Part shown: piece by piece, positions 15,001 to 18,000 of the stretch
Layout: each line of letters opens with the position of its first letter
Position numbering within the stretch: position 1 is the first letter of the stretch
Origin: Escherichia coli
GTDB taxonomy: Bacteria > Pseudomonadota > Gammaproteobacteria > Enterobacterales > Enterobacteriaceae
DNA: 64,000 bases
Assembly: GCF_009931435.1 (NCBI RefSeq)
Contig: NZ_CP043415.1
Direction: 5' to 3' (one strand)
Made by a program: the position numbers

Positions 15001-18000
15001 ACTATCTGACTTAGTTCCTTTCCTGTTCCAGGAAACCATTCATCACATTGCAGGAGAATACTGTCTGTGGGGAAATGGGATGCAGAAACTTACAGACTAC
15101 TGGCAACTTTAAATCTGTTTTTTCCGTTCAAAACGTGGGGGGATACCAGACCATACAGTGTCCAGCCAGGAAAAGTAACAATAAAGTGCTACAGCATGGC
15201 TTCTTCCCCGGAAGAGTAGAGCGTAAAGAGGCTGTACATCACACCAATAAAGGAAACAGCCTACACTTTTTCGCATCAGCCGTATTCTGAACAATCACCA
15301 GTGCCTCCCTCAACAGAATATACAGGATGATGATTTGGCTACCATGGCCAGGTTAACCAGCACGTTACGATGACTGTGCTGAGACATACTTATGGTCATC
15401 AGTAATAATCCGCTCAGGAAAATCATTACAGCCAACATCCCATGAACGGGTATATATGCTTTAGTCAGACGAGAGAATATTTAAGGAAGTATCCATAAGC
15501 GGGAGTGGATACAGGAGAAAGAAACGAGCAGCACTGATGTTCCCGGGTTTTACTGTAATGCTGGAAAACCTGCATAAAGCTGTATCAGGAAAACTGCACA
15601 ACAATAGCCAGCAGTCCTCAGATAAACGGAATAGCAACCTAAAAACAATGCAAGAAGATTACACTGCATTTACGTGATAAATATCATATTACATGCGTTC
15701 AACCTTGCATCATGCATACGCCACAGGACGTCATTAATATTTTTCTATGAAATAAGATTACTCAATAATCTCTCTGTCTTTCACAGTAATGCGGACAAAC
15801 ATAAAATTCATTATTTTTGTACATTGAAGTAATCCATATTTATTTGATATCCGTGTTCTTCGGCAGCTATTACAGCGGCAAGCGCGGTGCACTGCGCATG
15901 GACTAATCAGAACCTGTAGGCTGAACGGTATCAATCCAGAAGCGTATCTGCGCCATATCCTGAGCGTACCGCCGGAATGGTCTTTCTACCGTGTGATGAA
16001 CTCCTGCCATGGAACGTAACACTCATCAATAAATAATTATCAATATAGCGAGCACTTACGTATTTTTAGTGGATGAATCAAGTATATGATTGCTGTTTGA
16101 TTCTTATCATAATATCTTTCTGTTCACTCAGGATAAAATCTGTCTGGAATATTGTTTTTCTTAATCAGAAACAGTGAAAATATATTGGTATAAGCTATTA
16201 AGGATACGTAATTAAATGATAAAACATTTGCAAAGCGGTCCATTAGTTGTAGTTATGGCATTCATATTATGGGGACTCACACCTTTGTTTTATAAATATC
16301 TTTCCGGCGGTGTACTGACTCATATTCTGATATACAGAGTAATCTTCTCTATTCCATTGTTATTGGGAATAAGACTATTATTTAACAGGAGGACATTATT
16401 TCGGGATTTATTGAAAGATAAAAGATCTTTTGTGTTCTGTATGATTGCTGGGTTATTAATGATAATTTCCTGGTCATCTTTTATTTACGCACTGACAAAT
16501 CATCAGGTTCTTGATGCGAGTCTTGGGTATTTTATCAATCCACTCTTTGTTATTTTACTTGGCTATATTTTTCTTAAGGAAAAATTATCTTTATTCCAGA
16601 TGATTGCTGTTTTTTCCGGTACGTCTGGACTGCTATTTCAGTTGTTTTCGGTACGCAACCTTCCCATACTGGCACTAATCATGGGGCTTTCATTTGCATT
16701 ATACGGACTGATAAGAAAATTCATTCACTATGATGCTATAACCTCAGTCACGCTTGAAACATTCTGGTCATTACCTGTTTCACTTATCCTTTTTATATAT
16801 ACCGACCCGGATGTAACCACGCCCTCTGAGATCCCATGTATTCTGTACATTATGACTGCACCAGTCACTGTTATCCCGTTGGTGCTGTTTGCTGTTGCAC
16901 TGAATCATACATCACTTATCGTAACCGGCCTTGCCCAATATATCGGTAAGCGTACAGCCTGAACCGTCTGGTCAGAATCTGACGAATTAGACAAAGTGGT
17001 GTCCACCAAATAAGTAGTGGGAACCAAAGTATCAGATATGCAGAAAAATGTGACTCCCGGCAGGCGAAAAGGCTGCCCTAATTATCCTCCCGAATTTAAA
17101 CAGCAGCTCGTTGCTGCCTCCTGTGAACCCGGGATATCCATCTCAAAACTTGCTCTTGAAAATGGCATTAACGCCAATCTGTTGTTCAAATGGCGACAAC
17201 AATGGCGCGAGGGAAAGCTGCTATTACCTTCTTCAGAGAGCCCCCAGCTACTTCCTGTGACTCTCGATGCAGCTGCCGAACAGCCAGAATCGCTCGCAGA
17301 GGACCCGGAAACCCTCAGTATCAGCTGTGAGGTAACGTTCCGGCACGGGACGCTCCGCTTCAATGGCAATGTCAGCGAAAAGCTCCTGACTCTGCTGATA
17401 CAGGAACTGAAGCGATGATCCCGTTACCTTCCGGGACCAAAATTTGGCTGGTTGCCGGTATCACCGATATGAGAAATGGCTTCAACGGCCTGGCTGCGAA
17501 AGTACAAACGGCGCTGAAAGACGATCCCATGTCCGGCCATGTTTTCATTTTCCGGGGCCGCAGCGGCAGTCAGGTTAAACTGCTGTGGTCCACCGGTGAC
17601 GGACTGTGCCTCCTGACCAAACGGCTGGAGCGTGGGCGCTTCGCCTGGCCGTCAGCCCGTGATGGCAAAGTGTTCCTTACGCAGGCGCAGCTGGCGATGC
17701 TGCTGGAAGGTATCGACTGGCGACAGCCCAAGCGGCTGCTGACCTCCCTGACCATGCTGTAAATCTCTTTATCCTGGTTGTCACAGAATAAGCCCGGTAA
17801 AATACAGGCTTATGAACGACATTTCTTCTGACGACATCTTCCTGCTGAAACAGCGCCTGGCCGAACAGGAAGCGCTGATCCACGCCCTGCAGGAAAAGCG
17901 GAGCAACCGGGAGCGCGAAATAGACCATCTGCAGGCGCAGCTGGATAAACTCCGCCGGATGAACTTCGGCAGTCGTTCCGAAAAAGTCTCCCGCCGTATC

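What the first reader, a model, noticed from the sequence alone, without database searches (positions are those of the whole stretch)
16216..16962. rarD-like permease gene truncated by the IS66-family insertion, with an IS-derived C-terminus
The ORF runs directly into the IS inverted repeat at 16946, so its last residues and stop are supplied by the IS. A second, intact EamA/DMT permease gene sits at 31873-32820. A native promoter for the rarD-like gene is plausible in the AT-rich 15.3-16.2 kb tract.
Basis: partly seen in the sequence, partly recalled or inferred. Interest (0 to 1): 0.25.

Follow-up and report, generated by a model that had tools for sequence, protein, structure and literature searches.

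The report
IS-truncated rarD-like permease pseudogene
This is the front four-fifths of a membrane-transporter gene cut off by a mobile element (ISEc8) at the edge of the F17 fimbrial module of a ruminant E. coli virulence plasmid; it is an ordinary gene remnant that RefSeq already marks as a pseudogene.

Summary
ORF 16216-16962 (248 aa) is a RarD-family EamA/DMT permease (TIGR00688, 160 bits against a cutoff of 130). Homology with intact 298-aa chromosomal alleles (99.7% nt over the coding part) stops at 16945. ISEc8 (IS66 family) starts at 16946 with GTAAGCG and supplies the last residues (G)KRTA and the TGA stop.

55 residues are missing, namely TM9 and TM10. The second EamA repeat covers only profile positions 5-97 of 135 and falls below Pfam's cutoff.

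This is not a simple insertion. There is no 8-bp target duplication, and the 3' part of rarD is absent from the window and from all 72,556 PLSDB plasmids. The right-hand ISEc8-heptosyltransferase junction is more widespread than the rarD junction. The IS therefore marks a recombination boundary of the F17 module on Vir-type IncF plasmids.

The same junction occurs in pVir68 and at least 20 other plasmids. RefSeq annotates it as "rarD, incomplete, missing C-terminus". One GenBank record, whose rarD-ISEc8 stretch is identical to the window's, calls it an intact protein.

The DMT gene at 31873-32820 is intact but unrelated. The promoter claim is untested, and only about 156 bp upstream is native. 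Low interest; already known.

The parts
16216..16945 (+). Native part of the rarD-like gene: codons 1-243 plus the first base of codon 244 (TM1-TM8 and the first residues of TM9)
   Evidence: 99.7% identical over these 729 coding nt to the intact 298-aa allele L001:5217-6113; homology ends at 16945. EamA/TIGR00688 hits.
16946..16962 (+). IS-derived tail of the ORF: last two bases of Gly244, then K-R-T-A and TGA, all inside the ISEc8 left inverted repeat
   Evidence: Sequence; alignment with other ISEc8 left ends and with the intact rarD; the same GKRTA* tail in five other plasmid loci.
16946..19386 (+). ISEc8 (IS66 family), 2441 bp, degenerate copy. IRL starts at 16946; IRR 19365-19386 ends CGCTTAT instead of CGCTTAC. 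tnpA 17036-17418, tnpB 17415-17762. tnpC 17812-19349 carries a TAG at 18151-18153 and a 1-bp deletion after 18268.
   Evidence: Pfam HTH_Tnp_1, TnpB_IS66, LZ_Tnp_IS66, DDE_Tnp_IS66; inverted repeat I2; RefSeq 'ISEc8 family transposase, frameshifted; internal stop' in sister plasmids; comparison with intact copies; GC jump from 0.35-0.43 to 0.55-0.64.
16060..16215 (+). Native upstream region of rarD with Shine-Dalgarno AAGGA at 16200-16204; promoter not identified
   Evidence: Conserved with the 89%-lineage chromosomal locus from about 16055 onward; no consensus sigma-70 hit on the + strand in 16040-16215; no Rfam match.
15853..16059 (+). Remnant of another IS66-family transposase C-terminus and right end (ends CACTTAC at 16059), also present next to intact rarD on some chromosomes
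   Evidence: RefSeq 'transposase domain-containing protein; frameshifted; missing N-terminus' at the homologous place; alignment break with MIN10.
15091..15494 (-). potE (putrescine-ornithine antiporter) pseudogene fragment, a relic of the chromosomal speF-potE neighbourhood
   Evidence: 72-73% blastn match to potE of L001; RefSeq potE pseudogene annotation at the homologous site.
19867..21087 (+). TibC/Aah-type autotransporter heptosyltransferase gene on the right flank of ISEc8; this junction is older and more widespread than the rarD junction
   Evidence: Pfam TibC_1st + Glyco_transf_9; the right junction fully covered in 18 E. coli records, only a few of which carry the rarD junction; different left flanks.
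31873..32820 (+).
   Evidence: Two EamA stretches, E=1.9e-49; aligns to 11-284 of 294 and 7-291 of 299 positions of DMT profiles; RefSeq WP_001253824.1 not flagged as pseudo; only E=0.016 to the rarD-like protein.

Best explanation
The ORF is a dead-end 5' remnant (codons 1-243 of 298) of a divergent RarD-family DMT permease gene. The gene's native home is a variable chromosomal region, rarD-ghoT-ghoS-potE-speF, which in some ruminant E. coli also carries an F17 fimbrial island.

On Vir-type IncF plasmids the F17 module was captured together with a potE fragment, an IS66 remnant and the first 730 bp of rarD. The right edge of the captured block is the left end of an ISEc8 element.

Reading through that end adds (G)KRTA and a stop. 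The predicted product has TM1-TM8 but lacks TM9-TM10, that is, the last two helices of the second 5-helix EamA repeat of a 10-helix transporter. It is most likely non-functional.

The junction most likely arose once. Either an ISEc8 copy inserted in rarD and then recombined with the ISEc8 already sitting upstream of the heptosyltransferase gene, or there was a cointegrate or adjacent-deletion event. Either route explains why there is no target duplication and no 3' half.

Shown: the truncation, the breakpoint, the IS-derived tail, the missing helices, the absence of a TSD and of the 3' part, and the distribution of both junctions. Inferred: loss of function and the exact order of recombination events.
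For: Truncation:
- Intact alleles are 298 aa and the window ORF matches residues 1-243.
- RarD profile coverage is 4-250 of 296.
- The second EamA repeat covers 5-97 of 135 at 25.1 bits, below the 28.2 cutoff; the intact allele gives 5-133 at 36.7 bits.
- There are ten hydropathy peaks, two of them after residue 243. RarD is treated as a 10-TM DMT protein in PMC2716321.

Breakpoint at the IS terminus.

Not a simple insertion:
- A canonical ISEc8 copy (GF60) has a perfect 8-bp duplication AGATATTG and ends CGCTTAC. The window has ATATATCG on the left and TACGCAGC on the right.
- The 3' rarD-ghoTS segment is found only in 7 chromosomes with intact genes and in none of 72,556 plasmids.
- The right junction occurs in 18 records with other left flanks: ompP side, a YadA-like gene, or an IS3 truncation.
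- In TK3896 the left flank GCTTATTA reappears at the right end.
- The window has an extra 10.7 kb (6208-16945) relative to TK3896.
- In QML220601 the rarD'-ISEc8 unit is joined to cdt instead.

Native context.

Already flagged as a pseudogene by RefSeq.
Against: No expression or transport data exist. The 248-aa frame is open in all six plasmid copies examined (window, L003, L004, L005, L012, L015), including two lineages about 2% apart, so a residual role cannot be formally excluded.

That divergence mirrors two intact chromosomal alleles, so it says nothing about selection on the truncated form.

The order of events (insertion then IS-IS recombination, or cointegrate/deletion) is not resolved. 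The TK3896 'target duplication' needs an assumed 6-bp slippage at the IS end.
Confidence: 0.85

Rival explanations
1. Simple in-situ transposition. ISEc8 jumped into an intact plasmid-borne rarD, and the 3' half plus one copy of the target duplication was later lost by an IS-adjacent deletion reaching the heptosyltransferase region.
For: The breakpoint is exactly at the IS terminus. IS66-family elements insert with 8-bp duplications, and adjacent deletions are a common IS outcome (general knowledge).
Against: No plasmid in PLSDB or RefSeq carries the 3' rarD-ghoTS segment. The ISEc8-heptosyltransferase junction exists without rarD in other plasmids, and in TK3896 it has a probable duplication of its own. 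That ISEc8 was therefore in place before rarD' was joined to it.
Confidence: 0.1
2. The 248-aa protein is a functional shortened transporter or membrane protein (8 TM plus an IS-encoded tail), retained because it is useful, for example by pairing with another DMT half or as a modulator.
For: The frame is open and the tail identical in all six plasmid copies examined. A Shine-Dalgarno sequence and conserved upstream DNA are retained. pN/pS between the two truncated lineages is about 0.2-0.3.
Against: The low pN/pS is inherited from two intact chromosomal alleles. Within-lineage changes are few and mostly non-synonymous (0-1 synonymous against 2-3 non-synonymous). The second EamA repeat falls below the Pfam threshold. 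RefSeq calls it a pseudogene. No promoter was identified.
Confidence: 0.04
3. The ORF is full length and merely abuts the IS, that is, a naturally short RarD variant.
For: GenBank record CP057191.1 annotates it as an ordinary CDS 'EamA family transporter RarD' (QME37164.1).
Against: A 99.7%-identical allele continues for 55 more residues. The last five residues and the stop are IS sequence.
Confidence: 0.01

Closest known systems
The rarD pseudogene of pVir68 and related Vir/F17 IncF plasmids (e.g. NZ_CP157153.1 ABH552_RS24000, NZ_CP132064.1 Q8X46_RS24145)
   Same: Identical junction, identical GKRTA* tail, same F17-potE'-IS66'-rarD'-ISEc8 order, 98-100% nt identity.
   Different: Nothing material. 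In some plasmids the ISEc8 right flank differs (cdt-III instead of the heptosyltransferase gene) and tnpC is intact.
Intact chromosomal rarD-like gene next to ghoT-ghoS-potE-speF (e.g. WP_021578762.1 in E. coli GXU-23-25-310)
   Same: Same gene: 99.7% nt identity over codons 1-243, with the same upstream region and IS66 remnant.
   Different: The chromosomal copy is 298 aa with TM9-TM10 and is followed by ghoT/ghoS. The window copy stops at residue 243 and is followed by ISEc8.
E. coli K-12 RarD (b3819), DMT superfamily, RarD family
   Same: Same family and architecture. The intact allele aligns end to end and passes TIGR00688.
   Different: Only 34% identity. It scores 142 bits against the 540-bit cutoff of the K-12-type equivalog PRK15430 and sits in a different genomic location. 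It is a divergent paralogue, not the orthologue.
ISEc8 (IS66 family)
   Same: tnpA-tnpB-tnpC organisation, GTAAGCG termini, about 2442 bp, at least 98% identical to annotated ISEc8 copies.
   Different: This copy has a nonsense codon and a frameshift in tnpC, a T instead of C as the last base of the right end, and no target duplication.

Membership tests
RarD family of DMT/EamA transporters (TIGR00688) | Sequence score above the curated family cutoff | tested here: met
   160.3 bits against a cutoff of 130.15, even though truncated.
RarD family of DMT/EamA transporters (TIGR00688) | Complete architecture: two 5-helix EamA repeats, 10 TM helices | tested here: not met
   The second repeat covers profile positions 5-97 of 135 at 25.1 bits, below the 28.2 cutoff. 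The intact allele gives 5-133 at 36.7 bits. Two hydropathy peaks (about 245-260 and 266-281) lie beyond residue 243.
Orthologue of E. coli K-12 RarD (NCBIfam PRK15430 equivalog) | Score above the 540-bit equivalog cutoff | tested here: not met
   142.1 bits; 34% identity of the intact allele to b3819.
RarD family of DMT/EamA transporters (TIGR00688) | Transport activity or a phenotype | not testable with these tools
   No expression or functional data available.
IS66 family / ISEc8 | tnpA (HTH), tnpB (IS66 Orf2) and tnpC (DDE_Tnp_IS66) in this order | tested here: met
   Pfam hits; RefSeq names in sister plasmids.
IS66 family / ISEc8 | Terminal inverted repeats beginning GTAAGCG | tested here: met
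   IRL GTAAGCGTACAGCC at 16946. The IRR arm is 81% complementary and ends CGCTTAT, a one-base deviation.
IS66 family / ISEc8 | 8-bp target-site duplication flanking the copy | tested here: not met
   ATATATCG on the left against TACGCAGC on the right. The control copy in GF60 has AGATATTG on both sides.
IS66 family / ISEc8 | Intact DDE transposase | tested here: not met
   TAG at 18151-18153 and a 1-bp deletion after 18268 relative to pVir68 and Ceylon31.
Gene split by a simple IS insertion | The 3' remainder of the gene is present on the other side of the IS | tested here: not met
   No match to the rarD 3' part in the window, in any E. coli plasmid of RefSeq or in PLSDB.

The most novel reading that the evidence does not exclude
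The rarD' stub is not just debris. Together with the F17 operon it may act as a homology arm through which plasmid and chromosomal F17 islands exchange alleles. Two rarD' allele lineages, each matching a different intact chromosomal allele, share the identical ISEc8 junction. Alternatively, the conserved open 248-aa frame could be expressed as an 8-TM membrane protein with some residual or new activity.
Probability: 0.1. Interest if true: 0.3.

Novelty: already known. Interest (0 to 1): 0.07.

Why it matters
It matters little biologically. It is a passenger remnant marking the edge of the F17 virulence module on Vir-type plasmids.

It has two practical uses. First, the exact rarD::ISEc8 junction is a convenient lineage marker for this plasmid family, and it shows that the plasmid F17 module was drawn from the chromosomal speF-potE-ghoST-rarD region. 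Second, it exposes an annotation inconsistency. GenBank CP057191.1 lists the stub as a normal RarD protein (QME37164.1), while RefSeq marks the same sequence as a pseudogene. Counts of transporters or 'rarD' on plasmids should exclude it.

Tried and rejected
- PDB sequence search with the intact protein found no hit at E<=1, so TM helices could not be mapped onto a solved structure.
- Internal-repeat BLASTP of the two halves gave only a weak match (E=0.72) aligning TM3-loop-TM4 with TM8-loop-TM9. I use it only as supporting evidence.
- The promoter and terminator scan of 15300-17100 showed no excess of sigma-70-like sites (4 against 7.4 expected) and none in the native 16060-16215 stretch. My manual candidates (TATATT 16181-16186 and the extended -10-like TGGTATAAG 16186-16194) are weak and unverified.
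- Rfam found nothing in 14500-20000.
- Metagenome scans found 0 hits for the hypothetical reciprocal junction. The known left junction, run as a positive control, also gave 0 hits, so that collection is uninformative here.
- The literature has nothing on this stub. The F17/pVir68 paper PMC4267768 does not discuss the flanks.
- dN/dS as a test of selection on the truncated form was rejected. Between-lineage divergence is inherited from intact alleles and within-lineage changes are too few.
- I did not run structure prediction or the large protein-database searches, because the near-identical intact allele already answers the length question.

Full report
**Observation.** ORF 16216-16962 (+) exists and encodes 248 aa. 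It is a genuine gene fragment, not a chance frame. Pfam EamA gives E=2.4e-18. NCBIfam TIGR00688 'EamA family transporter RarD' gives 160.3 bits against a cutoff of 130.15, matching profile positions 3-245 of 256. The K-12-type RarD profile PRK15430 is matched at positions 4-250 of 296.

Immediately downstream lies an IS66-family element. tnpA (HTH_Tnp_1), tnpB (TnpB_IS66) and a split tnpC (LZ_Tnp_IS66; DDE_Tnp_IS66 + C-terminal element) were all identified. Imperfect terminal inverted repeats lie at 16947-16967 and 19365-19385. GC content steps from 0.31-0.43 to 0.55-0.64 across the boundary.

**Is it truncated?** Yes. A megablast of 16000-16945 against 5,426 complete E. coli genomes found the gene in only 19. 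In chromosomes such as GXU-23-25-310 the gene is 897 bp (298 aa, WP_021578762.1) and 99.7% identical over the coding part.

Collinearity between that chromosome and the window runs from 10995 and stops exactly at 16945. Aligning the window with three unrelated ISEc8 left ends and with the intact allele shows two things. The IS copies share sequence from G16946 (GTAAGCGTACAGCC...), and the intact gene continues ...ATC GAA CCT TCT... where the window reads ...ATC G|GT AAG CGT ACA GCC TGA. So residues 1-243 are native, and (G)KRTA plus the stop come from the ISEc8 left inverted repeat.

The protein alignment with three full-length sequences (two 298-aa alleles and K-12 RarD) confirms that 55 residues are missing. 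A third 298-aa allele, from MIN10, has the same length.

**What is missing?**
- The hydropathy profile of the intact protein shows ten peaks, the last two at about 245-260 and 266-281.
- Scanned alone, the C-terminal half of the intact protein matches EamA positions 5-133 of 135 (36.7 bits). The truncated half matches only 5-97 (25.1 bits, below the 28.2 cutoff).
- A weak internal-repeat match places the break at the start of the helix equivalent to TM4, that is, TM9.
- RarD is treated in the literature as a 10-TM member of the DMT superfamily (PMC2716321).

The predicted product therefore has TM1-TM8 and lacks TM9-TM10.

**What kind of RarD?** The intact allele is only 34% identical to K-12 RarD (b3819) and scores far below the K-12 equivalog cutoff. 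It is a divergent family member. Its native setting is a variable chromosomal region, rarD-ghoT-ghoS-potE-speF. In several ruminant isolates that region also holds an F17 fimbrial operon, a potE fragment and an IS66-family remnant directly upstream of rarD.

**How did the truncation arise?** It was not a simple insertion.
- *No target duplication.* A canonical ISEc8 copy (strain GF60) is 2,442 bp, ends CGCTTAC and is flanked by a perfect 8-bp duplication AGATATTG. The window copy is 2,441 bp and ends CGCTTAT. It has ATATATCG on the left and TACGCAGC on the right.
- *No 3' half.* The 3' part of rarD with ghoT/ghoS is absent from the window. It is present only in seven chromosomes that have the intact gene and in none of 72,556 PLSDB plasmids.
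- *An older right junction.* The ISEc8-heptosyltransferase junction is fully covered in 18 E. coli records, while the rarD junction is in four. In other plasmids the same ISEc8 has different left neighbours: the ompP side in pTK3896_2, a YadA-like gene in pCeylon31IncF, and an IS3 truncation in QML220601 p1.
- *A probable original insertion in TK3896.* There the left flank GCTTATTA reappears overlapping the right end, which is consistent with an original duplication plus a 6-bp slip.
- *An added block.* Relative to TK3896 the window carries an extra 10.7 kb (6208-16945) in place of 16 bp. The block consists of a second IS66-family element, an IS66 tnpA remnant, the F17 operon, potE', the IS66 remnant and rarD'.
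- *Rearrangement through ISEc8.* In QML220601 the rarD'-ISEc8 unit is joined to cdt-III. In the window, cdt-III is preceded by a 463-bp ISEc8 right-end fragment at 56618-57080. ISEc8 copies have clearly served as recombination substrates.

The most economical reading is a single ancestral ISEc8 junction in rarD, joined by IS-IS recombination (or a cointegrate/deletion event) to the ISEc8 already present next to the heptosyltransferase gene. The exact order of events is inferred.

**Distribution and prior knowledge.** The junction occurs in 21 PLSDB plasmids, including pVir68 (NC_012944.1), from cattle, sheep and yak, and in four RefSeq plasmids. RefSeq/PGAP annotates it as 'rarD ... incomplete; missing C-terminus'. 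GenBank CP057191.1 is identical to the window over the 1,301-bp stretch 16000-17300 and 98.8% identical over the first 22.7 kb. It annotates the 248-aa ORF as an ordinary RarD protein, QME37164.1. The feature is therefore already known, and the only loose end is inconsistent annotation.

**Function.** All six plasmid copies examined (window, L003, L004, L005, L012, L015) keep the 248-aa frame. The two plasmid allele lineages each mirror a different intact chromosomal allele, and all lineage-defining sites lie in 16224-16633. Their low pN/pS is therefore inherited, not evidence for selection on the stub. Within-lineage changes are few and mostly non-synonymous.

No sigma-70 consensus promoter was found in the 156 bp of native upstream DNA, although that DNA and the Shine-Dalgarno sequence are conserved. 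No Rfam element is present. I conclude that this is a non-functional remnant (confidence about 0.85). Loss of function is an inference from the missing helices.

The DMT gene at 31873-32820 is intact. It is essentially unrelated to the rarD-like protein (E=0.016 over 93 aa), so it is not a redundant copy.

The '15.3-16.2 kb AT-rich tract' has GC 0.39-0.43. It is mostly a potE fragment and an IS66-family remnant. Only 16060-16215 can hold a native promoter.

**Negative or uninformative searches.** The PDB sequence search found nothing. Metagenome scans for the reciprocal junction and for the known junction as a control both returned zero, so they carry no weight. The literature search found nothing on this stub.

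**Verdict.** Observation confirmed and interpretation supported, with the refinement that the IS is a rearrangement boundary and not a simple insertion. This is ordinary and already annotated, so interest is low.

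Noticed in passing
window 31399-31471 (+): A tRNA-like gene (Rfam tRNA 47.6 bits, above the gathering score). From memory it resembles E. coli glyT tRNA-Gly, which I did not test. It has an 8-nt anticodon loop rich in U, and ARAGORN reads a 4-base anticodon 'tttt'. PGAP calls it 'tRNA-OTHER'. It is found only on plasmids (23 of 5,426 E. coli genomes), with a 1-nt length difference between the window and most other copies, about 400 bp upstream of the intact DMT gene. It could be a degenerate tRNA or a quadruplet-decoding (frameshift-suppressor-like) tRNA.
   Followed up: partly
window 16224-16935; loci L001-L005, L015: Two allele lineages of the truncated rarD' share the identical ISEc8 junction. 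Window, QML220601 and UTAK-5 resemble the GXU chromosomal allele. pVir68 and NADC1036 resemble the NS-NP030 chromosomal allele. This implies later homologous exchange between plasmid and chromosomal F17 islands upstream of a single ancestral junction.
   Followed up: partly
window 56618-57080 (-) and 52704-57078: A 463-bp ISEc8 right-end fragment abuts the cdt-III toxin genes. In QML220601 p1 the complete rarD'-ISEc8 is joined to this cdt flank, while the heptosyltransferase gene there has only an ISEc8 stub. The two plasmids therefore differ by a rearrangement (probably an inversion) across ISEc8 sequences.
   Followed up: partly
window 18151-18153 and after 18268: The ISEc8 transposase gene tnpC carries a nonsense codon (TTG>TAG) and a 1-bp deletion relative to the intact copies in pVir68 and pCeylon31IncF. 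This IS copy is probably immobile unless complemented in trans.
   Followed up: yes
window 19380-19394; L009 1831-1846 and 4280-4294: The ISEc8 right end next to the heptosyltransferase gene ends CGCTTAT rather than CGCTTAC in all 18 records. In pTK3896_2 the left flank GCTTATTA equals the sequence spanning the right terminus, which suggests an original 8-bp duplication followed by a 6-bp slippage deletion.
   Followed up: partly
window 6208-8916 (-) and 8917-~9380: A second, different IS66-family element (GTAAGCG at 6208, CGCTTAC ending at 8916) also lacks a target duplication (CTTTGCAG on one side, GTTGATTC on the other). It abuts a further IS66-type tnpA remnant. The F17 module is thus bounded on both sides by IS66-family ends.
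   Followed up: partly
window 19867-26050: A TibC/Aah-type heptosyltransferase gene is followed by a large AIDA-like autotransporter gene with many internal repeats (multiple 80-95% self-matches at 21.6-24.1 kb). The ISEc8 right end lies a conserved 481 bp upstream of the heptosyltransferase start in 18 records.
   Followed up: no
window 16216-16962 vs GenBank CP057191.1 16214-16960: There is an annotation discrepancy. GenBank lists the stub as a normal protein 'EamA family transporter RarD' (QME37164.1), while RefSeq marks the identical sequence in sister plasmids as a pseudogene missing its C-terminus.
   Followed up: yes
window 31666-31855 (+): A sub-threshold Rfam match to the sRNA STnc100 (33.9 bits against a gathering score of 47, E=1.3e-5) lies immediately upstream of the intact DMT gene. 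It is probably chance or a distant relative.
   Followed up: no
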